Shown here piece by piece: positions 1,460 to 49,656 of a stretch of 64,000 nucleotides of DNA (within the stretch, counting starts at the first letter, position 1; each line of letters opens with the position of its first letter). Location of the stretch: positions 66,508 through 130,507 of the forward strand of contig CAVYZZ010000006.1 of the NCBI GenBank assembly GCA_963773115.1. Direction: 5' to 3'. The DNA is from an uncultured Alphaproteobacteria bacterium (GTDB lineage Bacteria > Pseudomonadota > Alphaproteobacteria > Rhizobiales > Xanthobacteraceae). A program made the position numbers and the translations under genes. A model generated the notes under the pieces. That model did not search any database. It was not told where the DNA came from and worked only from the letters and a program-made list of their open reading frames with translations.

Positions 1460-3154
1460 ATGGCGAAGGACGACAAGGCAAGTGGGGAGGCGGTCACGGC
1501 AGAGCCCGGGCGCGACTTTATCCGCGACATCGTCCAGGCAGACCTCGACGCCGGGCGTGTCAAGGAGGTAGTGACCCGTTTCCCGCCCGAGCCGAACGGC
1601 TATCTCCATATCGGCCACGCCAAGTCGATCGGTCTGAATTTCGGCGTCGCCGAGGAGTTCGGCGGTCACTGCAACCTGCGCTTCGACGACACCAACCCGG
1701 CCAAGGAAGAGCAGGAATATATCGACGCCATCGAGCGCGACGTGCGCTGGCTCGGCTTCGACTGGGGCCGGCGCCTCTATCATGCCTCCGACTATTTCGA
1801 GCAGCTTTACGATTGGGCCGAGGACCTGACCCGCGCCGGCAAGGCCTATGTCGACGACCAGACGCAAGACCAAATGCGCGCGAACCGCGGCACGCTCACC
1901 GAGCCCGGCAGGAACAGTCCATTCCGCGACCGCAGCGTGGAGGAAAACCTCGACCTGTTCCGCCGCATGCGCGCCGGCGAGTACGAGAACGGAGCGCGCG
2001 TGCTGCGCGCCAAGATCGACATGGCGTCCGGCAACATCAATCTGCGTGATCCGGTCATGTACCGCATTCTCCACGCGGCGCATCCGCGCACCGGTAGCGC
2101 CTGGACGATCTATCCGAGCTACGACTACGCCCACGGCCAGTCCGACGCCATCGAAGGCATCACCCATTCGGTCTGCACGCTCGAATTCGAGGACCACCGG
2201 CCGCTTTACGACTGGTTCATCGAAAACCTGAAAGTGCCCTCGCGGCCGCGCCAGTACGAGTTCGCGCGGCTCAATCTAACCTACACCGTTTTATCGAAGC
2301 GCGTGCTCACGCTGCTGGTGCGCGACGGCCACATCAAAGGCTGGGACGATCCGCGCATGCCGACATTGGCCGGTTTGCGCCGGCGCGGCGTGCCGCCGGA
2401 GGCGATCCGCGATTTCGTCAAGCGCATCGGCGTGGCCAAGGCCAACAGCGTGGTCGACGTCGGCATGCTCGAATTCTGCGTGCGTGAGGCGCTCAACAGA
2501 ACCGCGCTGCGGCGCATGGCGGTGTTGCGGCCGCTGAAAGTCGTGATCGAGAACTATCCGGAAGGCCAGGTCGAGGAGCTGGACGCGGTCAATCACCCTG
2601 ATGATTCAGCCGCAGGTTCGCGCAAGATCAAATTCGGGCGTGAGCTTTTCATCGAGGCCGAAGATTTCATGGAGGAGCCGCCGAAGAAGTTCTTCCGCCT
2701 TGCGCCCGGTCGCGAGGTGCGCCTGCGTTACGCCTATTTCATCACCTGCCGCGAGGTGAAGAAGAACGCCAAGGGCGAGGTGATCGAACTGGTCTGCACC
2801 TACGACCCGGCCACCAAGGGCGGCAACGCGCCCGACGGCCGCAAGGTGAAGGGAACCATCCACTGGGTGTCGGCCGAATATTCCTTGCCGGCGGAAGTGC
2901 GGCTCTACAATCCGCTGTTCACCAAGCCCGACCCGAATGCAGAAGATTTTGCGGCCGATCTAAATCCAAACTCACTCGAAATCGTTGAGGCGCGCGTCGA
3001 ACCGGCGGTCGTCGCCGGCAACGAAACCGAGGCGGTGCAATTCGAGCGCAATGGCTACTTCTGCCGCGATCCCGACAGCGCGCCCGACAAGCCGGTTTTC
3101 AACCGCACCATTGGCCTGCGCGACACCTGGGCCAAGGAAAAGGCGGCGGGCTAG
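1460..3154 (+). CDS. glnS: glutaminyl-tRNA synthetase
   Basis: 564-aa ORF with [16 protein letters not shown] (HIGH), NLRFDDTNP and LTYTVLSKR (GlnRS-type MSK loop). Divergent from gltX across a 123-nt spacer. Confidence 0.92.
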
Positions 3155-3203
3155 GGCGTACTCATAGCCGATAGCTAGCTACTAATATGCAGCAGCGCCC
3201 GCT

Positions 3204-3273
3204 GTCCGCTTCCGGGGGCAAAGAAGACATGACGCCGACATCCCGGGATGTCCGCTAATGACCCATAACGGAC
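3204..3273 (+). repeat. GTCCGC/GCGGAC stem-loop cluster R1 (2 hairpins)
   Basis: GTCCGC-ttccgggggcaaa-GAAGAC (3204-3228) and GTCCGC-taatgacccataa-CGGAC (3250-3273, loop class C), immediately after the glnS stop. Confidence 0.7.
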
Positions 3274-3324
3274 AGTGCGGAGAATGGACGTCGGCTTTTA
3301 AGGCACTGTTTGGCTCTATTATCG

Positions 3325-4227
3325 TCAGCGGGTTCGACGGTGAGCCATTTCGGCGAGGTGCGTGCGAACGAAGGTCTGAAAGAGGTCTGCAGAAGGCGTC
3401 AACTTGGCGTCTCGAACGCGAAGCACTGAAACGACGTTACGAACATTCCATCCCCGAAAGCGGATAGCGGCCAATGATCCCGTTCGCAATTCTGCAGCCA
3501 CAACGTAGCGGCTGATGGCCGCAATTCCATAGCCTCGCTTCAGCGCGTGGACGACCGCCTCATTGGACGGCAATTCAAGCCGATGTCTGGGAACAATGCC
3601 CAACCGCGCCAATCCTGCGTCTGACGAGATCCGCGTCGCCGAGCCGTCCTCTCTAGAAATCCAGGTCACCTTTTCGAAACTGTCGCGCGATGGTCGCCGC
3701 GGTACGAGCGCTGGCTTGCCGACGATCACAATATCATACTCCAGCAGAGGCTCAGTTTCGATCTCCGGTGCCGTGACGGTCCCCGCGACGAAGCCGAGCT
3801 CGGCGTGATGCGACCGAAGCAATTCAACTGCTCGCCAGGCGGTGCCTACCTGCAAGGTGACCCGCACGTCTGGATAGGAATGCTGAAAGTCGGCAATGAT
3901 CTCGGGCAGCAGATATCCGCCAGTAAGCGATGACGCCACCACTGCCACTGAGCCGGAGCCGCTTTTGCGGAATTGGGCGGCGCCGAGGTCTGCTTGCACG
4001 AGGAGTGCCTCGGCCCGAAGCACGTGGTTTGCAACGAAATCGCCCGCCTTCGTGAGCACGCCCTCCCGCCGCGCCCGTTCAACGAGTTTTAGGCCCAATG
4101 CGGTCTCCAACTCGGCGATGTGTTTTGAGACAGCAGGCTGGCTGATGCGCAGCTCCGCGGCGGCCGCCGAGAACGACCGTTGCCGGACAAACGCGGCGAA
4201 GGCGCGCAATCGTGCTTCGAGCTTCAT
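3325..4227 (-). CDS. LysR-family transcriptional regulator
   Basis: 300-aa ORF. N-terminal wHTH MKLEARLRAFAAFVRQRSFSAAAAELRISQPAVSKHIAELETALGLKLVER. Divergent from the MBL gene, the classic LysR arrangement. Confidence 0.9.
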   Translation of the reverse strand: MKLEARLRAFAAFVRQRSFSAAAAELRISQPAVSKHIAELETALGLKLVERARREGVLTKAGDFVANHVLRAEALLVQADLGAAQFRKSGSGSVAVVASSLTGGYLLPEIIADFQHSYPDVRVTLQVGTAWRAVELLRSHHAELGFVAGTVTAPEIETEPLLEYDIVIVGKPALVPRRPSRDSFEKVTWISREDGSATRISSDAGLARLGIVPRHRLELPSNEAVVHALKRGYGIAAISRYVVAAELRTGSLAAIRFRGWNVRNVVSVLRVRDAKLTPSADLFQTFVRTHLAEMAHRRTR

Positions 4228-4314
4228 AATCTGAGGTTATACCGAAACGTCGATTATGTATTTTTTTCTTGATCCCGCGGCCGATATGGTGGGTCGACCA
4301 AACGAGGGTAAACG

Positions 4315-5139
4315 ATGCCTGCATTCATTTGCTCGACCTGCGGCACGCAAAATCCGCCAAGTGAGGCGCCACCAGCCTCGTGCCCCGTGTGCGAAGACGA
4401 ACGCCAGTTCATCCCTCCCGAGGGACAGTCATGGACGACGCTAGAGCGACTCAGGATTTCGCACCACAACGGGTTCCGTCAGTACGAGCCAGGTCTCATC
4501 GGCATCGGCACGACGCCCAAATTTGCCATCGGACAGCGCGCACTGCTTTTGTGTACCCCTGAAGGAAACATCCTCTGGGATTGCATCTCGCTGATCGACG
4601 ACGCCACTGTAACGCTGATCAACGGGCTTGGCGGATTGCGTGCCATCGCCATTTCGCATCCGCACTTCTACACGACGCTTGTCGATTGGAGCCGGGCCTT
4701 CGGGAACGTGCCGGTCCATCTGCACGCCGACGATGCCAAGTGGGTGAGGCAGCCCGACCACTGCATCAAGTTCTGGCAAGGCGAGAGATTCGAACTGTTT
4801 AAAGGTATCACTCTGGTCCGCGGCGGCGGGCACTTCCCCGGCGGAGCGATGTTGTATTGGGCGGCAGGGGCCGGGGGTAAAGGCGTGGTGTGCTCGGCGG
4901 ACATGGCCATCGCCAACCTCGACCGTAAGTCCTTCTCGTTCATGCGCAGCATTCCGAACTTTATCCCGCTATCCGAAAAGGCTGTCCGTGCTGTCGGTGC
5001 GGCACTGATGCCTCTCGCTTTCGATCGGGTCTACAGCCACCACTTCGAGCGGGTGATCCATTCGGGCGCCAAGGAGATATTGCGGAGCTCCGTGGAACGC
5101 TACGTTGCGGCTATCACGGGCGTCTATGATCGTTCATGA
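4315..5139 (+). CDS. MBL-fold metallo-hydrolase with N-terminal CxxC...CxxC zinc-ribbon-like motif
   Basis: 274-aa ORF. N-terminus CSTCGTQNPPSEAPPASCPVCEDERQ, then AISHPHFYTT in the position of the MBL His motif and HLHADD further on. Function beyond the fold is unknown. Confidence 0.75.
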   Translation: MPAFICSTCGTQNPPSEAPPASCPVCEDERQFIPPEGQSWTTLERLRISHHNGFRQYEPGLIGIGTTPKFAIGQRALLLCTPEGNILWDCISLIDDATVTLINGLGGLRAIAISHPHFYTTLVDWSRAFGNVPVHLHADDAKWVRQPDHCIKFWQGERFELFKGITLVRGGGHFPGGAMLYWAAGAGGKGVVCSADMAIANLDRKSFSFMRSIPNFIPLSEKAVRAVGAALMPLAFDRVYSHHFERVIHSGAKEILRSSVERYVAAITGVYDRS

Positions 5140-5383
5140 GGTCAAGAAGTCCAGCACGCACAAGAAGCGCGAGCGGTCGCTACGCTCCGGCCTAAGTACA
5201 ACATGGCACCGCTCATAGCAGATACAGCATGAGAGACATTGTGACTGCGATCAGACACAACCGGACAGTGGTGTGCGGCAAAATCTTAACGGGCCTGCAG
5301 GAGGTTCCATCGCCGCATTTGCTGTGCTTCAAGCTATCTTGGGGAATGTGCAGCCCCGTGCCCATCTAAGCGATCGATGCGAT

Positions 5384-5505
5384 GTCCGTTTCTGGCACAT
5401 AGCAGACACCCCAGTTGCGCCCGCGTTTGTCCGCTATTGGAGCAACAGCGGACATTGATCGGCACTGGTGCCGGATGGCTCGGTCGCTAATGACCCAGAG
5501 CGGAC
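5384..5505 (+). repeat. tripartite stem-loop module R2 (hairpins A-B-C)
   Basis: A: GTCCGT-ttctggcacata-GCAGAC (5384-5407). B: GTCCGC-tattggagcaaca-GCGGAC (5429-5453). C: GTCGC-taatgacccaga-GCGGAC (5483-5505). Track ORFs 5273..5458 and 5415..5609 are translations of this repeat. Confidence 0.8.
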
Positions 5506-5626
5506 TGGCCGCGATCCCAGACGGATCAGAAACCTTCTTGCGCCAGCCTTTCCTTACTAACCTAGGAGGCCTCTTTCGCTTCGGTGGCGGCGCACCGTCC
5601 CCACTATGATCCGAGACCTTGTCCGG

Positions 5627-7539: not shown

Positions 7540-8091
7540 ATGCTGCGGCGCAAATTCATCACACTTCTAAGCGGTGCGACGTTTGTATGGTCGTTCGTAG
7601 CGATAGGTATACTGGCTGCGCAAGCAAGCGAAATTAGATTTCCGAAAACGGGTAAGCACGCATTTCTCCTGACTTTGTTTAAAGGCTGGCAATCAAGGAT
7701 GGACACCCGTGGTGGGCTACTTTTGGTGCCGCCCTCAAGCAATCAACACGCGATGATCTATATTGCCATCGTCATGGACGATAAATATCGTGACCAACCG
7801 GACAGCGTTATTGCCAGCGCCGTCGGGAAAATTGCCGGCATTCAGACTTTCGACAAACAGGAGTCCGCACGGATATCTGATTCGAATGGCACGACGTTTC
7901 ACAAGGGCACGGCATTTTACGGCAAGATGCCCGCAAGTTTCGGTTTTGCGAGAATGGCCAAGCTCATGATTTTCCGACTGGAGCCAAATACGTGGGCGGA
8001 GGTATGGATTGTGGCGCAGCCTGGGTTAAATGCCGCTGAGGCTGACTCGCTCGAGCAAACCCTCAACGGCATCACGCTCACGAGCGAATGA
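7540..8091 (+). CDS. hypothetical secreted protein
   Basis: Track ORF 7513..8091. ATG at 7540 gives MLRRKFITLLSGATFVWSFVAIGILAAQA (signal-peptide-like). No recognised family. Confidence 0.6.
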   Translation: MLRRKFITLLSGATFVWSFVAIGILAAQASEIRFPKTGKHAFLLTLFKGWQSRMDTRGGLLLVPPSSNQHAMIYIAIVMDDKYRDQPDSVIASAVGKIAGIQTFDKQESARISDSNGTTFHKGTAFYGKMPASFGFARMAKLMIFRLEPNTWAEVWIVAQPGLNAAEADSLEQTLNGITLTSE

Positions 8092-8146
8092 AAATATAAA
8101 CGAGAGATCGTTTCGGACCTTATTCGTTTATTTCCTAAACTGTGAT

Positions 8147-8268
8147 GTCCGCACTTGGCACTTAGCGGACAAACCTACCGCGCCAACGTTAGTCCGCTAT
8201 TGGACCAACAGCGGACAAACAGCGCCGTCGCGCCTCAACGGCTAGGCCGCGAATGACCCAAAGCGGGC
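8147..8268 (+). repeat. tripartite stem-loop module R6 (hairpins A-B-C)
   Basis: A: GTCCGC-acttggcactta-GCGGAC (8147-8170). B: GTCCGC-tattggaccaaca-GCGGAC (8192-8216). C: GGCCGC-gaatgacccaaa-GCGGGC (8245-8268). Track ORF 8030..8245 is a translation of it. Confidence 0.8.
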
Positions 8269-8545
8269 ATCCGATTGGCCGTCTCGGTCATAGGCCATGC
8301 TGCCGGGAGGCACTAATCCGCGCCGTAAAAGCGGAAAGCGCCACGTCCGTTCGTGTCCGGGCCGTCTGAGACCCTATCGGCGATAAGCCATTGACCTATA
8401 TTAATAAATTTCGCTTGTGCGCAAAACGGTGTTAAGGCAACAATGACACCAACTTGCTGCATTGCAGAAAATTTGCTCTAATTTGACTGTGGCGTCATGG
8501 GATTTGCGAACTTTATCGCATCCCCAAGATGTTGAGCGTCAAGCA

Positions 8546-9301
8546 ATGAATAAAAAAACATGCAAGGCGTTGATCTCTGCGGGGATCGCGTTTGGTCTTG
8601 GCCTATTGGGTGTCCCGACAGTCAGTTACGCAGCTACTGTGACATACGTTCAGACGACGCAAGGTTGTACTGGCGGTTGCGGCATAAGTGTCAACAACAC
8701 GGTGCAGGTGTCGGATACGGCGTTGCCGACGTCGATTACGCCGTTAGCCGGTGGCGTGTTTGATATTTACGTAACGCTCGATACGAGTACAGCCACGCCT
8801 TGGTCGTTCATGAAAAATGCTGGGGGTAAAACCACAGGCCACGCCGCATCGTTCGCGTTTTCTAGCAGTCTAAACCCACTCACTCTGACCGTCATAACTC
8901 CCGGCAGTAATTTTGCCCCGAATTCAATTAACCCGATGCCCGCATATGCGATGTCGCCGTTTGATTTTCCAGCTAATGGCTATGGGCTGTCTACAGATCA
9001 ACAAAAGGTATACAGCACACTCGATTTTCATGTCGACACGGGGAATAGCTCGCTGACGCTGGCTCAGTTCTTGGCTACCTTACTTGCTTCAACTGACTCA
9101 CCGTATCCAATATTTGCCGCGGACGTGTATAGCGGCATTACAGGCTATACGGGCATTATCGGCTTTACCCAATCCAATAACGAAGGCCCGCCGCCCGTGG
9201 TGCCACTTCCAGGCGCACTTCCGCTGTTCGCCAGCGGCCTCGGCGCGTTAGGGCTGCTCAGCTTGCGCAGGAAGCGGAAGAAGGCTGCAGTCGCGGCCTA
9301 A
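8546..9301 (+). CDS. secreted protein with C-terminal PEP-CTERM-type (VPLPA-like) sorting signal
   Basis: ATG at 8546 gives signal peptide MNKKTCKALISAGIAFGLGLLGVPTVSYA. The C-terminus VVPLPGALPLFASGLGALGLLSLRRKRKK is a VPLP motif plus hydrophobic helix plus basic cluster. A strong terminator follows. Confidence 0.8.
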   Translation: MNKKTCKALISAGIAFGLGLLGVPTVSYAATVTYVQTTQGCTGGCGISVNNTVQVSDTALPTSITPLAGGVFDIYVTLDTSTATPWSFMKNAGGKTTGHAASFAFSSSLNPLTLTVITPGSNFAPNSINPMPAYAMSPFDFPANGYGLSTDQQKVYSTLDFHVDTGNSSLTLAQFLATLLASTDSPYPIFAADVYSGITGYTGIIGFTQSNNEGPPPVVPLPGALPLFASGLGALGLLSLRRKRKKAAVAA

Positions 9302-9327
9302 CCAAAACACCTGATCGGATTTCGGAG

Positions 9328-9353
9328 AGACCGCCGCGTTGGCGGTCTTTTTT
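9328..9353 (+). terminator. rho-independent terminator (copy 2)
   Basis: GACCGCC-gcgtt-GGCGGTC followed by TTTTTT, 27 nt after the stop of 8546..9301. Confidence 0.75.
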
Positions 9354-9378
9354 GTGCCGATCATGTTGCAGTGCATGA

Positions 9379-28508: not shown

Positions 28509-28557
28509 GCGCATGATCCCGAAAAGTGGGAACCGGTTTTCGGATAAGTTCATGCGC
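28509..28557. repeat. 49-bp palindromic intergenic element, copy 3 (inverted relative to copies 1-2)
   Basis: GCGCATGATCccgaaaagtgggaaccggttttcggataagTTCATGCGC, 17 nt after the kdsA stop and before the MFS gene. Confidence 0.85.
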
Positions 28558-28571
28558 AAGAAAAAAGCCGC

Positions 28572-29738
28572 ATGAGTCGGGTCCTCAACCTCATGGCGTT
28601 CGTCGTGTTCGCGACGACGCTGTTCATGCGTTCTGTCGATCCTGTCATTCCGCAGATCGCGCATGGCTTGAACGTGGCGCCCACCACCGCCGCGTTGTTG
28701 TCGACCGCCTTCGCCTTGCCCTATGCGCTGATACAGCCGGTGCTCGGCGCGCTCGCCGACATGTTCAGCAAGACCCGGATGATAACGCTGTGCATGCTGG
28801 GGCTCGGCCTCACCACGCTCGCCTGCGGACTGGTGACGAATTTCGAAATGCTGATGGTCCTGCGCGTGCTCGCGGGCTTTGCCGCTGGCGGCGTCTTCCC
28901 GATCGCGCTGGCAGTTGCCGGCGACCGCGTGCCGGTTCAGCAGCGCCAGGTCGCGATCGGGCGGCTGTTGTTTGCCGCCATGACCGGCAATCTGCTGGGA
29001 GCGTCGGGCGCCGGCGTGGTCGGCGACACGATCGGCTGGCGCGGCGTCTTCTTCCTTACCGGCGCCATCGACCTGATCGCGCTTGGGCTGGCCATTCGCG
29101 GCTTTCGCGAATTGAAAGAAGTACCGGGGCGTTTCGACTTTTCAACCTTCATTCCGAACTATCGCGCGGTGTTCAGCAATCCGCTGGCGAAGTACTGCTT
29201 CGGCGCCGTTTTCATGGAAGCAATCTTCATGTTCGGCGTGTTTCCCTATATCGCGGTGATGTTGCGCACAGAAGGCGTCACGCAGGCCTCCATCGCCGGC
29301 GTGGTGATCGCCGGCTTCGGCATCGGCGGCGTCATCTACACCCTCATCGTGTCATGGCTGGTCACGCATATCGGCGAGCGTCGCCTGATGGCGGGCGGCG
29401 GCATGGTGATGGGGGCGTGCCTTGCGGTGATCGCGCTGCGCGTGCCCTGGCCGGCCGAATTCGTCAACTTTATTGTTATCGGATTCGGCTTCTACATGCT
29501 GCACGGCTGCATCCAGGTCTATGTGACCGAGCTGGCGCCGCACGCGCGCGCCTCGGCAACGGCCGGGCATTCGGCATTCTTTTTCCTGGGGCAGGCGATT
29601 GGGCCGGTGATCTATGGCCTCGGCCTCAACAGCGTCGGTATCGTCCCGGTACTGCTCACCGGCACGGTGGTGCTGACGCTGACGGGCTGGACTTGCGCCT
29701 TGCGGCTGCGCCGCCAGCCGCTACCGGCGGAAACTTAG
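28572..29738 (+). CDS. MFS transporter
   Basis: 388-aa ORF with about 12 hydrophobic segments and the MFS loop motif [13 protein letters not shown]. Confidence 0.85.
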
Positions 29739-30190
29739 CCGCGGCCGCGATAAGGCGCGACGCCTTGGTCGGGCGGCAGCCACACATCCTTTGGCAGCCG
29801 GCCGGCCTGCCAGAACACGTCGATTGGCATGCCGCCGCGCGGATACCAGTAGCCGCCAATGCGCAGATATTTGGGCTTGAGCAGCGCGAACAGTTTCTTG
29901 CCGATGGCGACGGTGCAGTCCTCGTGGAAGGCGCCGTGATTGCGGAAACTGTTGAGATAGAGCTTGAGCGATTTCGACTCCACCAGAAAACGCCCGGGCA
30001 CGTAGTCGATCACGAAATGCGCAAAATCCGGCTGGCCGGTGATCGGGCACAGGCAGGTGAATTCCGGCGCTGTAAAGCGCGCCACATAATTGGTGTTGGT
30101 GTGCGGATTCGGCACGCGGTCGAGCCTCGCCTTGGCGGGCGAAGCAGGGATGGGGGCAGGGCGCCCGAGCTGGAGCCGTTTTTTTGCCAT
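29735..30190 (-). CDS. queF: NADPH-dependent 7-cyano-7-deazaguanine reductase
   Basis: 151-aa [17 protein letters not shown] (catalytic Cys) and [14 protein letters not shown]. Convergent 4-nt overlap with the MFS gene. Confidence 0.92.
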
Positions 30191-30205
30191 TTACTCACCG
30201 CTGTC

Positions 30206-30296
30206 ATCGTCCGCGAAAGCGGACGATCCAGTATCCCCTGTGCCTGCGACTATCGCAGGATCTGAGAGTACTGGATGCCCCGCTTTCGCGGGGCAT
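30206..30296. repeat. cluster of three GC-rich hairpins between queF and eno
   Basis: ATCGTCCGC-gaaa-GCGGACGAT (30206-30227), CTGCGA-cta-TCGCAG (30245-30259) and ATGCCCCGC-tttc-GCGGGGCAT (30275-30296). Confidence 0.7.
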
Positions 30297-43855: not shown

Positions 43856-44368
43856 ATGCAGCGGGTCTTGGTCGTCGGATGCTCCGGGGCGGGCAAGAGC
43901 ACCCTCGGGTGTCAGTTGGCGATGACGCTCGGTCTGCCACTCATCCATCTCGACCAACATTTTTGGCGCCCCGGGTGGCAAGCGCCTGGCCCGCAAGAAT
44001 GGCGCGAGCAGGTAGTGGCGTTCGCAGGCGAACCGGCTTGGATCATGGACGGCAACTATGCCAACACCTTCGACATCCGCATGCCTCGCGCCGATACCTT
44101 GATCTGGCTTGATCACCCGCGGTCGGTCTGCATGCGCCGCGTCCTGACGCGCACGCTGGCGCAATACGGCCGTACGCGTCCCGACTTGCCGGAAAACTGC
44201 CCCGGACGTTTCGATCTTTCCTTCCTGCGCTACGTCTGGAGTTTCCACAAACAGCAGCGGCCGCGAATTGAAAATGGCATCAAGACGTTTGGAGGCCACC
44301 TGCGTCTGGTCGTCTTGCGTGACGATCGCGACGCGAGTTCATTCTTGGCCAATGCGGGGACTGCCTGA
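43856..44368 (+). CDS. P-loop NTPase, adenylate-kinase/topology-modulation-like (paralog of 18806..19360)
   Basis: 170-aa ORF. Walker A VLVVGCSGAGKST. Shares with 18806..19360 the pattern ...LPL(I/V)(H/D)LD...W... and ...AW(I/V)(M/I)(D/E)G. Its stop overlaps the next ATG (TGATG). Confidence 0.75.
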   Translation: MQRVLVVGCSGAGKSTLGCQLAMTLGLPLIHLDQHFWRPGWQAPGPQEWREQVVAFAGEPAWIMDGNYANTFDIRMPRADTLIWLDHPRSVCMRRVLTRTLAQYGRTRPDLPENCPGRFDLSFLRYVWSFHKQQRPRIENGIKTFGGHLRLVVLRDDRDASSFLANAGTA

Positions 44369-44823
44369 TGCCGCAATTCTCGACGAAGCGCCGCGTCCGC
44401 CACAGCGCATCCAACATGTTCGACCTCGTGGCGGATGTGGAGAATTATCCCGCGTTCGTGCCCATGTGCAGCGCCATGCACGTGCGCCGCGTCACCGACA
44501 AGGGCGAGGGCGTGACCGTGATGGTCGCGGCCATGACGGTCGCCTACAAGATGATCCACCAGACCTTCACGAGCCGGGCGACCCTCGACAAGCCCAACTT
44601 GAAGATCCTGGTGGAATATCTCGACGGCCCGTTCAGCCGCATGCAGAACCGCTGGGCTTTCTATCCGCAAGGCGATAACGCCTGCGACGTCGAGTTTTTC
44701 ATCGACTACGAATTCAGGAGCCGCACGCTGGCCGCGCTGATGGGCGCCGTGTTCGATACCGTGTTCCGCCGTATGGCGGTCGCCTTCGAGCATCGCGCCG
44801 ACAAAGTCTACGGCAAGGCTTGA
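44368..44823 (+). CDS. SRPBCC-fold protein, RatA/COQ10-like
   Basis: 151-aa ORF. ...MFDLVADVENYPAFVPMC.... From memory the position after lipA is typical in Alphaproteobacteria. Confidence 0.8.
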   Translation: MPQFSTKRRVRHSASNMFDLVADVENYPAFVPMCSAMHVRRVTDKGEGVTVMVAAMTVAYKMIHQTFTSRATLDKPNLKILVEYLDGPFSRMQNRWAFYPQGDNACDVEFFIDYEFRSRTLAALMGAVFDTVFRRMAVAFEHRADKVYGKA

Positions 44824-45256
44824 TCGCGCGGTCAGGCGGGAACGTCTTGCTCGCGCGCCGCGTCTCCCGGGACACAAAAATGAACCCGGAGGCTTCCCGG
44901 CACGGATAGGAGCGCACGCCGCTCGGCAACGGTGTGTCCTTGGGCAGATAGGGCACCGTGCACCGCCCGGCCGCGTTGTATGTCCAGGCATGGTAGCAGC
45001 ACTTGATGTGTTCGCCTGCCACGACGCCGCAGCTCAACGGCATCTGCCGATGGGCGCATCGATCCTCCAGCGCAAACACCTTGCCGCTGTCGGGCCGCAC
45101 CAGCGCGATGGGGTCACCGGCGAACGAGGCCGCGATCATGCTGCCGCGCTTGAGGTCCTTTGACCGTGCCACCGGATACCAGAAATCCGGGTTCAGTCCG
45201 ATCCGGCGCAAATCCGGTTCGTTGCCGCGCCGCTCCGGCGGCACTGTCCCATGCAT
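44714..45256 (-). pseudogene. Rieske [2Fe-2S] domain gene, probably a truncated remnant of an oxygenase alpha subunit
   Basis: ATG 45256 after AAGGGGG. FWYPVARSKDL..., Rieske ligands CAHRQMPL ... CCYHAW. After SGFIFV the frame degenerates into an Arg-rich tail that overlaps the 3' end of 44368..44823 by 110 nt. The adjacent frame (PGDAAREQDVPA stop at 44832) looks like the authentic continuation. No catalytic domain follows in either frame. Confidence 0.5.
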
Positions 45257-45410
45257 GTCAGCCCCCTTGACCTGCACGGTTGTCGCCCGCACGCCGGATT
45301 GTCCCATTCAGCCCGGCGATGACGCTAGCAGCTAACGCGCAGGGCCGAAAGTTTCCACTTGTCACGCCGTGGCGTCGTGCTGGCCCCCTTGTATCGTTGC
45401 CACCCTCCGG

Positions 45411-47837
45411 TCAACGACTGCAGTTGACGCGAAGCAGTTTGCAATCGGCGCTGAATTTTGCACACCGATTGATGGCATCTTGCGCTGCGGCCTTGGCTGA
45501 TTGTCCTTTGCCACCGGACCAACTGCCATCGGAGGCGCCCGCCACCGCCCCGCAATACTTGTTGTACCAGATAGCGATTTTGCAGCCTTTATCGCTCCCA
45601 CCGCAGGCAGACAACGCACTACGCTTTGCCTGCGCGCTCGTTCGGTAACCGGAAGCTTCGCCCCAGCGCTTCTCCTTCGGGTTATAGGCGAGCGCTCCGA
45701 AGCCGCGCTGAACGGGACCCATGAGGTCGTCCGTTACTTCGACCTTCGGAGGCGGGCGCGTGATACGATCGAGCGCCTTGCGATAGTCCGCCATGGCCAC
45801 GGATTTTTCGCCCTTTGCCTCGTAGAGCAAGCCGCGGTCGCTGTGGGCGATCGTTAACGATCCATCGCGGCGGATAGCCTCATTGTAGTCGGCAAGCGCC
45901 TTATCGGGTTTGCCGAGAGCTCGGTAAGCTCGGCCGCGCGCAACATATGCGAGAGCATAGTTCGGATTTAGACGAATGGTCTCGTCGAGGTCGTCAACCG
46001 CGCTGTTGTATTTCTTCGTGTCCATAAACACGCTGGCGCGGTTGAAGTATGCGTTGGCGAATTTGGGTGCAAGCTGGATCGCCTTGGCATAGTCGTCGAA
46101 GGCGTGGCTATAGTCCTTCTTGGCGGCATAGGCATTTCCGCGGTTGCTGTAGGCGTTGGCTAGTCTGGGATTGATCTTGATTGCCTCGGTGTAGTCGGCG
46201 ATAGCGCGATCGTTGTCACCTTTGGCCTTGTAGGTTATGCCGCGCTCGACAAAAGCGGCGGCAAGCTTCGGATTGCGCCGGATCGATTCGCTCAAGTCGG
46301 CGATGGCAGTGTCGTAGTCGCGCTTGAGCCTGTAGGCGATGCCGCGCTGGCCGTAGGCAAAGACGAATTTCGGATCGAGCTGGATGACTTTGGTGTATTC
46401 GCTGATGGCGCGGTCGTAGTCGTGCTTGGCCGCATATGCGAGGCCGCGTTGATAGTAGGCCAGGGGATATTTCGGATTTCGCCGGATCCCCTCGCTGAAA
46501 TTCGCGATGGCAAGGTCATAGTCCTTGGCTACGCCCCGGCCGGTATAATGCACCAAGCCCACATTAGCCGCCCCGGCAGCGTCGCCTTTGGCGGCCGCCT
46601 TGCGGAACCACTCCAGGGCCTTGGCGCCATCCTGCGCCACGCCTGTACCGTTCAGATACATCAGGCCGACATTGTTCATCGCCTGCAGATAGCCCGCGTC
46701 GGCTGCCTTGCGATACTCGGTCATCGCCTCGTCAAAGTTTTTGGATTGTTGCAGGGCGCGGCCGAGCTGGAAGTGGAAACGCGGCGTATCGAGATGGGCC
46801 GCGACCGCGGTCCGGCAGGCCGCGATGGCGCGGGCGGAATCAATTTCAGCCATTTGTAGACCCGACGCAACTTTCGACGGATCGTAAGGATGCGCCGCGA
46901 GCCGGTCGCAATCATTGACCGGCAGCGGACCTGACGCCGCCTTCGCAGGCGGAGCAGCGGCCGGCTTCTCCGGCGTTGCCGCCGGCGGAGTCTTGGAAGG
47001 GGCAGGCGGAGGCGGTTGCGGCGGGTTATCAGCGACTGCCGGCGGCACGTCCGCAGGCTTGTCGCCGAAGCGGAATTCTCCGAGCAGCGAGGACGCCACC
47101 CACGGTACCTGCGCGCCGTTGGAGGCGCGCGACACGCCGATGCGGGTGCGATTGAAAATCGCCTCTGCGGTCAGACCCGGTACGTGCAGTTGCTTGATCA
47201 GCTCGGCGGCGAACAGGCCGTTGCCGCCGGAACTTCGTTCGTCGATCAATTTGTTTGGCGCGCTCGAATAGAGAACCAGCGTGCCAACCGGTGTATTAAG
47301 CGGCGCAAGCCCCGCGGCAACGCTGCGAAAGCGGCGCTCGAACGGATTCCTGCGCGCGGCGTCGATGACGACGAGTTTGATCGTGGCGCCTTTGTGGTGC
47401 ATCTCGGCCAGCAACGCGTCAATGTCGACGCCGTCGCGGCGCACGTCACTTTCGGTCCAGATTTGGGCGTCGATCGGAATGAGATAGGTTTGGCGCCGGA
47501 CCTGAAGGCCGAATCCACTGAAATAGAAGATAGCCGTCGTACCTTTTTTAATTTTTCCGGTGAAGGCGTCGATCGCCCGCCGCATGTCCTCCTTGCCGAG
47601 GTTGGTCTTGAGGTCGACGCTGAAATGCAACCGGCGGAATTCTTCCGCCAATGCGGTCGCGTCCTTGGTCGCGTTGGGCAGCGGTGTTTGGGCGTCGGGG
47701 TAGTTCGCATTGCCGATGACCAGCGCGACACGCGCGTCTTGCTGCTGGGCGGGCGCCGACGTGAGCCCGATCAGCGACACGCCGAACAGGCCCAGGCAAA
47801 ACAAGATCAGCCGGCTGGATGCGCGATGCGCCGACAT
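45411..47837 (-). CDS. secreted caspase-fold (peptidase C14-like, dyad substituted) / Sel1 / TPR / Cys-rich C-terminal domain protein
   Basis: ATG 47837 after GGGGAGGA gives MSAHRASSRLILFCLGLFGVSLIGLTSAPA (signal peptide). Caspase-like ALVIGNANY...FYFSGFGLQ...LVVIDAARRNPF, a Pro-rich linker, Sel1-like repeats (GYLQAMNNVGLMYLNGTGVAQD...), about 9 TPRs and a C-terminal Cys-rich domain (GALAYNPKEKRWGEASGY...ALSACG...C...NKYCGAVA...INRCAKFSADCKL) resembling DUF4189 from memory. Confidence 0.85.
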   Translation of the reverse strand: MSAHRASSRLILFCLGLFGVSLIGLTSAPAQQQDARVALVIGNANYPDAQTPLPNATKDATALAEEFRRLHFSVDLKTNLGKEDMRRAIDAFTGKIKKGTTAIFYFSGFGLQVRRQTYLIPIDAQIWTESDVRRDGVDIDALLAEMHHKGATIKLVVIDAARRNPFERRFRSVAAGLAPLNTPVGTLVLYSSAPNKLIDERSSGGNGLFAAELIKQLHVPGLTAEAIFNRTRIGVSRASNGAQVPWVASSLLGEFRFGDKPADVPPAVADNPPQPPPPAPSKTPPAATPEKPAAAPPAKAASGPLPVNDCDRLAAHPYDPSKVASGLQMAEIDSARAIAACRTAVAAHLDTPRFHFQLGRALQQSKNFDEAMTEYRKAADAGYLQAMNNVGLMYLNGTGVAQDGAKALEWFRKAAAKGDAAGAANVGLVHYTGRGVAKDYDLAIANFSEGIRRNPKYPLAYYQRGLAYAAKHDYDRAISEYTKVIQLDPKFVFAYGQRGIAYRLKRDYDTAIADLSESIRRNPKLAAAFVERGITYKAKGDNDRAIADYTEAIKINPRLANAYSNRGNAYAAKKDYSHAFDDYAKAIQLAPKFANAYFNRASVFMDTKKYNSAVDDLDETIRLNPNYALAYVARGRAYRALGKPDKALADYNEAIRRDGSLTIAHSDRGLLYEAKGEKSVAMADYRKALDRITRPPPKVEVTDDLMGPVQRGFGALAYNPKEKRWGEASGYRTSAQAKRSALSACGGSDKGCKIAIWYNKYCGAVAGASDGSWSGGKGQSAKAAAQDAINRCAKFSADCKLLRVNCSR

Positions 47838-47975
47838 CGCATCCTCCCCTACACTGATGCCCGACGAGGCCGTTCCCGCCTGTTTTATTGCTTCGGGTCG
47901 ACCACCAATTTGCAGCTTAACAACGCGTGGAGCGGACCGGAACCCGAAATCGAGTACGTGACGCATCTGCCGCAG

Positions 47976-48470
47976 CTAAATGTGTTCTGCCATCTCGCGC
48001 AACATCGCCAGCGCCGCCAGCACCGACTTCTCGCGCACCGCGCCGCGGCCGATATCGCCGTAGCGCATCTCCTGGTGGGTGAGGGCGCCTCCGCGCGAGG
48101 CGGCGGCGAAATGCACCAGGCCCACCGGCTTGTCGGCGCTGCCGCCGCCAGGGCCGGCGATGCCGGTGATGGCGACCGCAATCTCGGCATTCGAATGGGC
48201 GATGGCGCCGCGCGCCATTTCCTCCGCCGTCTGCCGGCTCACCGCGCCATAGTCGCGCAGCGTTTCGGACGCGACGCCCAGCATCTGCTGCTTGGCCTCG
48301 TCGCTGTAGGTGACGAAGCCGCGGTCGACCACATCGGATGAGCCGGCGATCTCGGTGAGGGCGCCCGCCACCAGCCCGCCGGTGCAGGATTCCGCGGTCG
48401 CCACTTTCAGCTTGCGCGCGCGACAAGCGTCGAGCACGGCGGTGGCGGCGGCGTGCAGCTCGTCGCTCAT
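47976..48470 (-). CDS. CinA-family / nicotinamide-nucleotide amidohydrolase (PncC-like) domain protein
   Basis: ATG 48470 within track ORF 47976..48521. ...KVATAESCTGGLVAGALTEIAGSS...VAITGIAGPGGG. Confidence 0.88.
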   Translation of the reverse strand: MSDELHAAATAVLDACRARKLKVATAESCTGGLVAGALTEIAGSSDVVDRGFVTYSDEAKQQMLGVASETLRDYGAVSRQTAEEMARGAIAHSNAEIAVAITGIAGPGGGSADKPVGLVHFAAASRGGALTHQEMRYGDIGRGAVREKSVLAALAMLREMAEHI

Positions 48471-48480
48471 CGCGCGCCTT

Positions 48481-49656
48481 TCATTCCGAGCCCCAGGGCA
48501 GCCGCACCGTCGCGGTGGCATAGGCCGCGATGCCTTCGCCGCGGCCGGTGAAGCCGAGTTTCTCGCTGGTGGTCGCCTTCACCGCCACGCGCTCGATCGC
48601 GACGCCTGAGAGCTCGGCGATCTTGGCGCGCATGGCGTCGCGGTGCGGGCCGATTTTCGGTGCCTCGCACACCACCGTGACGTCGAGATGGGCGATGCGG
48701 CCGCCGCGCGCGGCCACGCGCTCCACCGCGAATTTGAGGAATCGGTCGGAGGAGGCGCCGCGCCATTGCGGGTCGCTGGGCGGAAAATGCGCGCCGATGT
48801 CGCCCTCGGCCAACGCGCCGAGAACGGCGTCGGTCAGCGCATGCAGCACTACGTCGGCGTCGGAATGCCCGGTGAGCGCTTGCGCGTGCGGAATTCGGAT
48901 ACCGCCGAGCACGACATGATCGCCGGGGCCGAAGGCGTGCACGTCGATGCCGGTGCCGGTGCGCACATCGCCCAAGCGCGTGAACTGCATTGCCTCGGCG
49001 CGCGCGAAGTCGTCGGCATTTGTGATCTTGATATTGCCGGGTTCGCCGTCGAACACGGCGACCTTCATGCCGGCCCATTCGGCGAGCGCGGCGTCGTCGG
49101 TGAAATCCTCGCGGCCTTGTGCCGCCGCCTTGCGATGGGCTGCCAGCAGGGGCGCGAAGGCGAAACCTTGCGGCGTCTGGATGGTGCGCAGCGTTTTGCG
49201 ATCCAGCGTATTGCCGACGAAGCCACCCGCATCGACGCTCTTGACCGTGTCGGTCACAGGCAGTCCCGGCACCGCGGCGCCGGTCTGCTGCGCGGCCGCG
49301 ATCGCGCGCGCGACCAGCGCCCGCGTCGCGAACGGACGCGCGGCATCGTGCACCAGCACGATATCGGGCTTGTTCGGCTCCAGCGCTTCCAGCCCCGCGC
49401 GCACCGAGGCCTGGCGCGTGGCGCCGCCGAAGGCCGGTTTCGGCAGTCGGATCGTGCCCACTGCGGCCGCGTAGAGCTTGAGATCCTCGGGCCTGATCAC
49501 CGGCTGGACCAAGCCGACGTTGGGCGCTTCTACGAGCATTAACAGGGTCCGGCGCAGCATGACCTCGTCGCCAATTCGCCGGAATTGCTTGGGTCTATCC
49601 CCGCCGGCGCGTTCCCCGCGCCCGGCGGCCACCACCACGGCTGCGACGCCCGGCAT
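48481..49656 (-). CDS. ispDF: bifunctional IspD/IspF (MEP cytidylyltransferase / MEcPP synthase)
   Basis: ATG 49656 within track ORF 48481..49923 gives [18 protein letters not shown] (IspD P-loop). IspF half: GTGIDVHAF...[19 protein letters not shown]. Confidence 0.93.

What the first reader, a model, noticed from the sequence alone, without database searches (positions are those of the whole stretch)
45411..47837. Secreted caspase-fold protein with both catalytic dyad residues replaced, fused to Sel1, TPR and a Cys-rich terminal domain
Seen: after a signal peptide the N-terminal domain has the hallmark strands of peptidase family C14 (ALVIGNANY; FYFSG-x-G; VVID-A-x-R-NPF). At the canonical His position the sequence is SGFG (Phe109, codon 47513..47511). 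At the canonical Cys position it is DAAR (Ala161, codon 47357..47355). A Pro-rich linker, about 3 Sel1-like repeats, about 9 TPRs and a 6-Cys C-terminal domain resembling DUF4189 follow. Established: the caspase/metacaspase/orthocaspase mechanism requires the His-Cys dyad. Inference: this is a pseudo-protease, a periplasmic or secreted scaffold or decoy that retains the caspase fold for binding. Bacterial caspase-like/TPR fusions have been linked to conflict and signalling systems, but no partner gene such as a gasdermin or an effector is adjacent here.
Basis: partly seen in the sequence, partly recalled or inferred. Interest (0 to 1): 0.65.

Follow-up and report, generated by a model that had tools for sequence, protein, structure and literature searches.

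The report
Exported dead-caspase (pseudo-orthocaspase) repeat protein
This gene encodes an exported protein whose caspase-like domain has lost both catalytic residues; it is real and conserved, but it belongs to a class (pseudo-orthocaspases of Rhizobiales) described from sequence in 2019, so it is a new example, not a new kind.

Summary
Window 45411..47837 (-) encodes an 808-aa protein: a Sec-type signal peptide, a Peptidase_C14 domain (Pfam E 8.5e-35), a disordered Pro-rich linker, 3-4 Sel1-like and about 7 TPR repeats, and a 6-Cys DUF4189 domain (Pfam E 2.8e-16; Rv1813c E 2e-9).

MALT1's catalytic His and Cys align to Phe109 and Ala161. The caspase domain has no Cys at all. Its AlphaFold model (pLDDT 93) matches the MALT1 caspase domain at TM 0.81.

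The loss is old and selected. The domain falls in one similarity cluster of 330 domains, of which 327 carry Y/F/aliphatic + A/S/G, three keep His only, and none keeps His-Cys. Both S1-pocket Asp residues are retained. dN/dS is about 0.29.

This is the Rhizobiales pseudo-orthocaspase class of Klemencic et al. 2019 (YS, YA and FS dyads; FS fused to TPR). The FA + Sel1 + TPR + DUF4189 architecture is a rare sub-type, found in about nine clusters from soil MAGs.

The gene sits in housekeeping context (lipA ... cinA-ispDF-dusB-ntrBC). No defence or gasdermin partner is present.

Most likely it is a non-catalytic periplasmic peptide-binding adaptor. Fusions and adjacency with His-Cys paralogues elsewhere hint at a cFLIP-like link to active orthocaspases.

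Interest is modest.

The parts
45411..47837 (-). Complete CDS, 808 aa plus stop: the pseudo-orthocaspase / Sel1 / TPR / DUF4189 protein
   Evidence: Full-length orthologues at 51-98% identity: P0121-P0129.
47842..47847 (-). Shine-Dalgarno GGAGGA, 4 nt upstream of the ATG at 47837
   Evidence: The sequence is conserved in L001 and L064.
47748..47837 (-). Sec-type signal peptide, residues 1-30: R5 and R9, then the hydrophobic stretch LILFCLGLFGVSLIGL, then A-P-A followed by QQQ
   Evidence: Read directly from the sequence. Equivalent N-termini occur in all full-length orthologues. pLDDT is below 50 in the model. No signal-peptide predictor was available.
47073..47732 (-). Caspase-fold (Peptidase_C14) domain, residues 36-255, catalytically dead
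   Evidence: Pfam E 8.5e-35. AF2 pLDDT 93.2. Foldseek best hit is the MALT1 caspase domain 3v4o_A, TM 0.81, E 1.8e-17.
47511..47513 (-). Phe109 (TTC) at the catalytic His position
47355..47357 (-). Ala161 (GCG) at the catalytic Cys position
47661..47663 (-). Asp59, the retained S1-pocket acidic residue. It aligns with the Asp of MALT1 'lvDv'.
   Evidence: Conserved in 93% of the pseudo cluster and 100% of His-Cys relatives.
47361..47363 (-). Asp159, the retained S1-pocket acidic residue two positions before the former Cys (motif D-A-A-R-R-N-P-F)
   Evidence: Conserved in 99% of the pseudo cluster and 100% of His-Cys relatives.
46920..47063 (-). Pro/Ala-rich disordered linker, residues 259-306
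   Evidence: pLDDT 35-37. It has the highest dN/dS of any segment, 0.66 against L001.
46470..46913 (-). Sel1-like helical repeats, residues 309-456, with C310 and C341 at the N-terminal cap
   Evidence: Pfam Sel1. PDB Sel1 proteins 6ok3 and 4bwr align here. Helices H334-H453 in the model.
45768..46469 (-). About 7 TPR repeats plus a capping helix, residues 457-690
   Evidence: Pfam TPR_1 and TPR_2. Consensus TPR proteins match at E 1e-78. Helices H458-H690 in the model.
45420..45701 (-). DUF4189 domain, residues 713-806, with six Cys (745, 752, 762, 792, 799, 806)
   Evidence: Pfam E 2.8e-16. phmmer to Rv1813c (7nhz_A) gives E 2e-9. The model shows two beta-beta-alpha-beta lobes. Six Cys are present in all orthologues.

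Best explanation
The gene encodes an exported, most likely periplasmic, non-catalytic caspase-fold protein: a pseudo-orthocaspase.

**Shown**
- The domain is a bona fide C14 fold.
- His and Cys are replaced by Phe109 and Ala161, and the domain has no Cys, so cysteine-protease chemistry is impossible.
- The loss is shared by a large, coherent clade and is maintained under purifying selection.
- The two acidic residues that form the Arg/Lys-binding S1 pocket in metacaspases and paracaspases (D59, D159) are kept.
- The clade has acquired its own near-invariant residues: W127, R134, R163 and E167-R-R-F-R171.

**Inferred**
- After Sec export and signal-peptide cleavage after A-P-A, the dead caspase domain acts as a peptide- or protein-binding module. 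It probably recognises a basic residue without cutting.
- A flexible Pro-rich linker tethers it to a rigid Sel1/TPR solenoid and a disulfide-locked DUF4189 domain, which supply further protein-binding surfaces.
- The whole protein would be an envelope adaptor that brings partners together or sequesters them.

The same dead N-terminal module is combined in relatives with TPR alone, Sel1+PDZ, FGE-sulfatase, peptidoglycan-binding or CHAT modules. So it behaves as a portable binding head with exchangeable tails.
For: **Domain identity and fold:**

**Dyad replaced:**. There is zero Cys in residues 31-260.

**Clade-wide loss**
- All 120 best homologues lack both H and C.
- Every sampled domain at 50% identity or more to the query lacks the full His-Cys dyad (three keep His only); His-Cys domains appear only at 47% identity or less.
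- In UPGMA clustering the query sits in a cluster of 330 domains: 327 pseudo, 3 keeping His only, 0 His-Cys.

**Selection:** dN/dS of the caspase domain is 0.29 against L001 and 0.28 against L002.

**Pocket and new conserved residues:**

**Export**
- Signal peptides are present in all full-length orthologues, all of which have 6 Cys in the C-terminal domain.
- DUF4189 proteins are periplasmic or secreted and disulfide-stabilised: XAC2611 and Rv1813c.
- Fusion partners in relatives are envelope domains: PDZ, PG_binding_1, Sel1.

**Domain layout:** the full-length model has a disordered linker and well-folded modules.

**Literature:** Rhizobiales pseudo-orthocaspases with YS, YA and FS dyads, FS ones with TPR. 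The same motifs (FFSGYG, DAQIW, RRDG, LDASRRNP, ERRFR) appear in that paper's alignment.
Against: - No ligand, partner or localisation has been measured for any Rhizobiales pseudo-orthocaspase.
- No signal-peptide predictor or model coordinates were available, so export and pocket geometry rest on sequence reading and column conservation.
- The gene has no informative operon partner. Its neighbours are housekeeping genes.
- It evolves faster than its neighbours: 82% identity against 86-98% in L001. That fits a dispensable accessory role.
- Retention of the two Asp residues could reflect structural rather than ligand-binding constraint.
Confidence: 0.6

Rival explanations
1. cFLIP-like partner. 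The dead domain works by pairing with an active (His-Cys) secreted orthocaspase encoded elsewhere in the genome. It would activate, inhibit or target that enzyme, or be its substrate. The Sel1/TPR/DUF4189 tail would bring in clients.
For: **Fusions.** Secreted proteins join a domain of the same pseudo cluster (45-54% identical to the query) to a His-Cys domain: P0241, P0133, P0242, P0137, P0249.

**Adjacency.**
- In L006 and L007 a separate His-Cys orthocaspase gene lies directly upstream, on the same strand, of a pseudo-orthocaspase-TPR gene.
- L008 and L009 show the same His-Cys then pseudo domain order and spacing by tblastn; their ORFs were not checked.

**Precedents.** cFLIP-L with caspase-8 and TbMCA4 with TbMCA3, as cited in PMC6426788.
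Against: - No His-Cys paralogue lies within the 64-kb window.
- None lies near the Bradyrhizobium FS-TPR genes: 4 of about 60 loci have one within 8 kb.
- The authors of PMC6426788 argue that prokaryotic pseudo-variants probably act independently of true ones.
- The rest of the source genome could not be searched.
Confidence: 0.2
2. It is still an enzyme. The caspase fold would have been re-tooled for another reaction using different residues, for example a Ser-based or metal-based hydrolase, or a transferase.
For: The clade has new near-invariant residues absent from His-Cys relatives: W127, R134, R163, E167, R169, F170. S107, S249 and S250 are conserved. Many clade members carry Ser at the Cys position.
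Against: - This protein has Ala, not Ser, at the nucleophile position.
- No His is conserved anywhere in the domain. H71, H147, H148 and H218 are not conserved columns.
- No Cys is present.
- S107 is simply the SG[H/Y/F]G motif position, which is mostly Ala (85%) in the His-Cys relatives, so nothing marks it as a nucleophile.
Confidence: 0.05
3. It is a component of an anti-phage or conflict system. Caspase-like proteases with TPR or repeat sensors occur in gasdermin, CHAT and EACC1-type systems.
For: There is a weak PADLOC 'caspase' hit (E 1e-5) and a 'TPR' hit. NCBIfam caspase_w_EACC1 gives E 4.7e-11. One relative carries a CHAT domain (P0133).
Against: - The NCBIfam score of 42.6 is far below the cutoff of 140.
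- The protein is exported and catalytically dead.
- Its neighbours are lipA, SRPBCC, a Rieske remnant, cinA, ispDF, dusB and ntrBC, with no gasdermin, NTPase or effector. The rest of the window sampled is housekeeping too, including ntrYX.
- The position between cinA and Rieske is syntenic in three genomes.
Confidence: 0.05
4. It is a decaying relic: a formerly active secreted orthocaspase that lost its dyad and now drifts without function.
For: It evolves faster than the flanking genes. The orthologue in L064 has frameshifts. The downstream Rieske gene is itself truncated.
Against: - dN/dS is 0.13-0.30 in every folded domain.
- The ORF is intact over 808 codons.
- The FA dyad, the 6 Cys and the signal peptide are conserved in all orthologues down to 51% identity.
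- 327 related dead domains have many invariant positions.
- The L064 frameshifts are clustered, as expected for long-read assembly errors.
Confidence: 0.03

Closest known systems
Rhizobiales pseudo-orthocaspases, especially the FS-dyad + TPR type (Klemencic, Asplund-Samuelsson, Dolinar & Funk 2019, PMC6426788)
   Same: - Alphaproteobacterial (Rhizobiales/Hyphomicrobiales) p20-type caspase domain with both dyad residues replaced by an aromatic plus a small residue.
- C-terminal TPRs.
- The same sequence motifs as in that paper's alignment.
- The Bradyrhizobium FS-TPR proteins are 52-55% identical in the caspase domain.
   Different: - The dyad here is FA. It is not among the three types the paper names as commonest, but it accounts for 65 of about 408 domains in my sample.
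- The tail has additional Sel1 repeats and a terminal DUF4189. Neither the main text nor the held supplements mention DUF4189.
- The paper links the class to anoxygenic phototrophs. The relatives found here are mostly soil MAGs and Bradyrhizobium.
Cyanobacterial pseudo-orthocaspase SyOC (YS type), Synechocystis PCC 6803 (PMC7889975)
   Same: A bacterial dead caspase homologue with an aromatic residue at the His position. It has a putative export signal and conserved acidic pocket residues.
   Different: - It belongs to a different clade and has no repeat or DUF4189 tail.
- A TAT-like signal is proposed there; here the signal is Sec-like, with no twin Arg.
- It is the only bacterial pseudo-orthocaspase these literature searches turned up with a knock-out phenotype: higher H2O2 tolerance. 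No such data exist for the Rhizobiales clade.
Eukaryotic pseudo-caspases cFLIP-L and Trypanosoma TbMCA4
   Same: A dead caspase fold retained under selection. In relatives of this protein the dead domain is fused to, or encoded beside, a live one.
   Different: - Those act in the cytosol with a defined live partner: caspase-8 or TbMCA3.
- No partner is known or adjacent here.
- There is no homology beyond the shared fold.
MALT1 paracaspase caspase domain (PDB 3v4o, 3uo8)
   Same: It is the best sequence hit (E 3.5e-9) and the best structural hit (TM 0.81) in the PDB. The acidic S1 residues align.
   Different: MALT1 has His415 and Cys464 (numbering from my own knowledge) and is an Arg-specific protease with death-domain and Ig domains. 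This protein has F and A at those positions and is exported.
DUF4189 proteins Rv1813c (M. tuberculosis, PDB 7nhz) and XAC2611 (Xanthomonas citri)
   Same: The C-terminal domain matches Rv1813c (E 2e-9) and Pfam DUF4189. It has six Cys and two beta-beta-alpha-beta lobes. The described members are exported binding proteins.
   Different: - Those are small stand-alone proteins. Here the domain ends an 808-aa multidomain protein.
- No X-T4SS genes turned up among the ORFs that were scanned.

Membership tests
Peptidase family C14 (caspase/metacaspase/paracaspase/orthocaspase) - homology | Significant match to the C14 profile over the whole domain | tested here: met
   PF00656, E 8.5e-35, 121 bits against a cutoff of 21.4. 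Residues 36-255 cover model positions 2-232 of 233.
Peptidase family C14 - homology | Caspase-hemoglobinase fold | tested here: met
   AF2 model pLDDT 93.2. Foldseek finds MALT1 at TM 0.81 and E 1.8e-17, then caspase-7, -3 and -9.
Peptidase family C14 - active enzyme | Catalytic His-Cys dyad | tested here: not met
   F109 and A161 sit at the aligned positions. There is no Cys in residues 31-260.
Pseudo-orthocaspases (PMC6426788) | Bacterial p20-type caspase domain with the His-Cys dyad substituted | tested here: met
Pseudo-orthocaspases (PMC6426788) | Belongs to the Rhizobiales Y/F + S/A clade | tested here: met
   The query sits in a cluster of 330 domains with YA, FA, YS and FS dyads and no His-Cys. 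It shares motifs with the paper's supplementary alignment. Hits come from Xanthobacteraceae and Nitrobacteraceae.
Pseudo-orthocaspases (PMC6426788) | No metacaspase-type p10 domain (this separates ortho- from metacaspase) | tested here: inconclusive
   The authors' p10 HMM was not available. Pfam finds nothing p10-like after residue 255, only linker and repeats. However, the domain spans the whole MALT1 caspase domain (TMt 0.82).
Pseudo-orthocaspases (PMC6426788) | Acidic specificity-pocket residues retained | tested here: met
   D59 is conserved in 93% and D159 in 99% of the pseudo cluster, and both in 100% of His-Cys relatives.
DUF4189 (PF13827; Rv1813c-like) | Profile match above the gathering score | tested here: met
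   60.3 bits against a cutoff of 25, E 2.8e-16, covering model positions 1-97 of 97. Rv1813c gives E 2e-9.
DUF4189 (PF13827; Rv1813c-like) | Two beta-beta-alpha-beta lobes locked by conserved disulfides | tested here: met
   The model shows E713-719, E724-731, H734-745, E753-758 and then E762-767, E773-778, H781-793, E800-807. Six Cys are present in all orthologues. Actual disulfide bonding is not testable here.
Sel1 / TPR solenoids | Repeated helix-turn-helix units matching the profiles | tested here: met
   Sel1 E 1.5e-12 and TPR_1 E 1.5e-52. The model has 22 repeat helices plus a cap.
Defence-associated caspase-like systems (gasdermin-protease, EACC1-associated caspase, PADLOC caspase) | Family-level profile score | tested here: not met
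   NCBIfam caspase_w_EACC1 scores 42.6 bits against a cutoff of 140. The PADLOC caspase hit reaches only E 1e-5.
Defence-associated caspase-like systems | Adjacent effector or sensor gene (gasdermin, NTPase, toxin) | tested here: not met
   The neighbours are a Rieske remnant, SRPBCC, lipA, cinA, ispDF, dusB and ntrBC. The same synteny is seen in L001 and L064.

The most novel reading that the evidence does not exclude
Xanthobacteraceae and Nitrobacteraceae run a periplasmic caspase-type proteolytic network. In it, dead (Y/F-A/S) caspase domains are obligatory partners of live secreted orthocaspases, as in cFLIP with caspase-8. The exchangeable tails (TPR, Sel1, PDZ, FGE-sulfatase, peptidoglycan-binding, DUF4189) select the clients. 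This protein would be the DUF4189-targeted adaptor of that network.
Probability: 0.12. Interest if true: 0.6.

Novelty: new member of a known kind. Interest (0 to 1): 0.3.

Why it matters
Pseudo-orthocaspases are abundant. The caspase domain used here finds 35,898 clusters at 50% identity with E <= 1e-3 and 7,061 with E <= 1e-30; that count mixes live and dead domains. Of 401 sampled domains, 333 are fully dead and 14 keep only His or only Cys.

No Rhizobiales member has a known function, partner or localisation.

This example adds three things:
- an architecture (FA dyad + Sel1 + TPR + DUF4189) that the 2019 survey does not mention;
- clear evidence that the dead state is ancient and selected;
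- fusion and adjacency evidence linking dead and live domains.

It does not open a new category. Its practical value is as a well-defined construct for the first biochemical test of what a bacterial dead caspase binds.

Tried and rejected
- **Exact-sequence lookup of the protein:** The closest entries are a 98% ENA protein (P0121), an 82% orthologue in an uncultured alphaproteobacterial MAG (L001) and a 74% orthologue in an Undibacter MAG (L002).
- **Homologue search with the DUF4189 segment alone:** returned nothing, because the word index found only 3 candidates. The DUF4189 call rests instead on Pfam, Rv1813c and the model.
- **Promoter and terminator scan of 44000..48700:** no promoter-like site, and terminator-like sites below the shuffled expectation. 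Operon structure with cinA and the Rieske gene is left open.
- **Alternative start at 47966 (851 aa):** rejected. It has no SD, it would bury the signal peptide, and the extension is not a conserved reading frame in L001.
- **Second caspase or DUF4189 copy in the window:** none found by tblastn.
- **Rfam and tRNA scans of the window:** empty.
- **Defence-system reading:** rejected.
- **Pocket geometry:** could not be inspected because model coordinates are not exposed.
- **Fold search of the full-length model:** not run, because TPR hits would dominate it.
Full report
**1. What is in the sequence**

Window 45411..47837 (minus strand) is an intact 808-codon ORF. The longest ORF reaches an ATG at 47966, but the start at 47837 is the supported one:
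- GGAGGA lies 4 nt upstream of it (47842..47847).
- It puts a signal peptide at the N-terminus.
- Gene calls for the orthologues begin MSAHRAS.
- In the 82% orthologous locus L001 the upstream extension is broken by a stop and a frameshift, while the nucleotides stay conserved.

GC3 of the CDS is 73%, against a window GC of 63%.

**2. Domain content**

Pfam finds:
- Peptidase_C14 at residues 36-255 (E 8.5e-35, model positions 2-232 of 233).
- Sel1 (E 1.5e-12).
- Several TPR families (TPR_1 E 1.5e-52, 7-8 stretches).
- DUF4189 at residues 713-806 (E 2.8e-16, full model length).

PDB sequence searches agree with this. Sel1 proteins and consensus TPRs match the middle of the protein. MALT1 matches the N-terminal domain (E 3.5e-9). 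Rv1813c, the solved DUF4189 protein 7nhz, matches the C-terminus (E 2e-9).

A full-length AlphaFold model (mean pLDDT 85.9) shows:
- residues 1-33 and 262-306 disordered (signal peptide and Pro-rich linker);
- a caspase-type alpha/beta domain;
- 22 repeat helices plus a cap (11 pairs, so about 3-4 Sel1-like and about 7 TPR);
- a C-terminal domain of two beta-beta-alpha-beta lobes, the topology reported for Rv1813c.

Everything else is as described.

**3. The dyad**

In the MALT1 alignment the catalytic motif 'yyaGhGye' pairs with 'fyfsGfGlq', and 'LDmCRk' pairs with 'IDaaRr'. F109 (TTC, 47511..47513) takes the His position and A161 (GCG, 47355..47357) takes the Cys position.

The model places both residues directly after strands, E101-107 and E153-159. 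These are the canonical locations in the fold, from my own knowledge of caspase structures.

Among 54 related domains that keep His-Cys, the same two alignment columns are 100% H and 100% C. The alignment is therefore not ambiguous.

Residues 31-260 contain no cysteine, and none of the four histidines falls in a conserved column. A domain model built on 50 sequences has pLDDT 93.2. Its best PDB matches are the MALT1 caspase domain (TM 0.81, E 1.8e-17), followed by caspases 7, 3, 9 and 1 and CED-3.

**4. The loss is clade-wide, old and selected**

- All 120 best homologues of the domain lack both residues: Y/F (rarely L/I/V/C) plus A/S/G. G108, D159 and A160 are invariant.
- Across 376 proteins from three searches, about 408 aligned caspase domains were scored. 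Every domain at least 50% identical to the query lacks the full His-Cys dyad (three keep His only). His-Cys domains appear only at 47% identity or less.
- Average-linkage clustering of the 401 domains long enough to compare places the query in one cluster of 330: 327 pseudo, 3 that keep His only, and no His-Cys. This is indicative, not a phylogeny.
- dN/dS of the caspase domain is 0.29 against L001 and 0.28 against L002. It is 0.13-0.31 for the other folded domains and highest in the linker.
- The two acidic residues that line the S1 pocket of metacaspases and paracaspases are kept: D59 in 93% and D159 in 99% of the pseudo cluster, and both in 100% of His-Cys relatives.
- The pseudo cluster also has near-invariant residues that His-Cys relatives lack: W127, R134, R163, E167, R169, F170. 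That is the signature of a retained or re-purposed surface rather than decay.

**5. It is a known class**

Klemencic et al. 2019 (PMC6426788) surveyed prokaryotic caspase homologues and defined pseudo-orthocaspases.
- 582 were alphaproteobacterial, and 96% of those came from Rhizobiales.
- The commonest dyads were YS, YA and FS.
- FS variants 'consistently' carried TPRs.
- The pocket Asp residues were conserved.

Their supplementary alignment contains Bradyrhizobium sequences with the same motifs as this protein. The Bradyrhizobium FS-TPR genes were recovered here as 52-55% relatives. Asplund-Samuelsson et al. 2012 (PMC3501461) had already listed TPR, Sel1, FGE-sulfatase and peptidoglycan-binding fusions, and 75% dyad conservation in Alphaproteobacteria.

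Three things are not in those papers as far as the held text shows:
- the DUF4189 terminus;
- FA named as a common dyad, although it accounts for 65 of about 408 domains here;
- the fusion and adjacency pattern described in section 8 below.

**6. This architecture and its distribution**

Only nine database clusters among the best 120 full-length hits combine C14 + (Sel1) + TPR + DUF4189 (P0121-P0129, 51-98% identity). Eight of them have an FA dyad and a signal peptide, and all nine have six C-terminal Cys. The ninth, P0127, is an N-terminally truncated gene call whose 648 residues start after the His position.

They come from soil and other environmental MAGs labelled uncultured Alphaproteobacteria or Undibacter. 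Neighbouring hits are labelled Xanthobacteraceae, Pseudolabrys, Pseudorhodoplanes and Rhodoplanes. These belong to Hyphomicrobiales.

The same dead N-terminal module is joined in relatives to:
- TPR only (about 490-520 aa, Bradyrhizobium);
- Sel1 + PDZ, with or without PG_binding_1 (about 810 aa);
- FGE-sulfatase (about 541 aa, dozens of clusters);
- CHAT.

**7. Genomic context**

The gene lies between a Rieske gene and cinA, in the run lipA, SRPBCC, Rieske | gene | cinA, ispDF, dusB, ntrB, ntrC, ntrY, ntrX, hflX. This position is conserved in L001 (82%) and L064 (70%). It is not conserved in the Undibacter MAG or in Bradyrhizobium.

The flanking genes are 86-98% identical to L001, while this protein is 82% identical. 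So it is an accessory, faster-evolving insertion in a core region.

Nothing suggests a defence island. There is no effector next door, NCBIfam caspase_w_EACC1 is far below its cutoff, and PADLOC gives only weak hits. No second caspase or DUF4189 copy is in the window.

**8. How it probably works**

*Shown:* it is a dead C14 fold with a retained acidic pocket. It is under selection, carries an N-terminal signal peptide, and has an even number (8) of Cys in the mature part. It is followed by three kinds of protein-binding module.

*From the literature:* the characterised DUF4189 proteins are an abundant periplasmic protein that binds VirB5 (XAC2611) and a secreted, disulfide-bonded protein (Rv1813c).

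*Inferred:* the protein is exported by Sec and cleaved after A-P-A. It then acts in the periplasm as a non-catalytic adaptor. Its caspase head holds a peptide, probably through a basic residue, without cutting it. Its Sel1/TPR/DUF4189 tail engages other envelope proteins.

The main rival, or a refinement of this, is a cFLIP-like relation to live orthocaspases:
- 31 sampled proteins carry 2-3 caspase domains, and 23 of them pair a His-Cys domain with a dead or half-dead one.
- Five of those contain a dead domain from the query's own cluster: P0241, P0133, P0242, P0137, P0249.
- In L006 and L007 a His-Cys orthocaspase gene sits directly upstream of a pseudo-orthocaspase-TPR gene on the same strand. 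L008 and L009 show the same domain order by tblastn.

Against this rival, most loci have no His-Cys gene nearby, and neither does this window.

**9. Verdict**

The object is a new member of an already described, functionally uncharacterised class. Interest is modest at 0.3. Its value is as a clean test case for what bacterial dead caspases bind.

Noticed in passing
window 44714..45307 (-), overlapping the convergent gene 44368..44823 (+): The Rieske gene just downstream is a remnant. It is 197 aa here, against 368 aa (Rieske + VanA_C) for the syntenic gene in L064. Only residues 1-128 are found in the window (45256..44873, 91% identity). The catalytic C-terminal domain is missing, and the ORF tail overlaps the SRPBCC gene.
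   Followed up: partly
L006 8010..10091 and 10532..12280; L007 5091..7277 and 7971..9509; also L008 and L009: In L006 and L007 a His-Cys (presumably active) secreted orthocaspase gene lies immediately upstream, on the same strand, of a pseudo-orthocaspase-TPR gene (YS or FS dyad). L008 and L009 show the same domain order and spacing by tblastn; their ORFs were not checked. Separately, 31 sampled proteins carry 2-3 tandem caspase domains, and 23 of them pair a His-Cys domain with a dead or half-dead one.
   Followed up: partly
L002 173..2782 and 3095..5557: The Undibacter MAG carries two adjacent FA-dyad paralogues. One has the Sel1/TPR/DUF4189 architecture. Next to it is a caspase + PDZ + 6x Sel1 + PG_binding_1 protein of 820 aa.
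   Followed up: partly
window 47838..47975 (the cinA-gene intergenic region): The roughly 130-nt region upstream of the start codon is conserved at nucleotide level in L001 and L064, for example GGGTTCCGGTCCGCT.CACGCGTTGTTAA.CTGCAAATT and CATCAGTGT.GGGGAGGATGCG. It is not a conserved reading frame. It could be a leader or promoter. No sigma-70-like site was found by the simple scan.
   Followed up: partly
L064 7423..9947: The 70% orthologue (P0127) is split by at least two frameshifts in its first 600 nt. They are probably long-read assembly errors rather than a pseudogene, because the rest of the gene is intact.
   Followed up: partly
Proteins P0175-P0238: Dozens of clusters fuse the same dead caspase head (63-69% identical) to an FGE-sulfatase (SUMF1/EgtB/PvdO-type) domain, giving proteins of about 541 aa. 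This dead-protease + live-oxidase combination was listed in 2012 but remains unexplained.
   Followed up: no
Window as a whole, and the hit lists: The 2019 paper ties Rhizobiales pseudo-orthocaspases to anoxygenic photosynthesis. The relatives recovered here are mostly soil MAGs (Xanthobacteraceae, Pseudolabrys, Undibacter) and Bradyrhizobium. None of the roughly 20 ORFs scanned in the window is a photosynthesis gene. The link looks taxonomic rather than functional.
   Followed up: no
window 28526..30265 (+): This 579-aa ORF has no Pfam hit at E <= 1e-8. It may be an overprinted non-gene, because ORF 28572..29738 overlaps it. Not examined.
   Followed up: no
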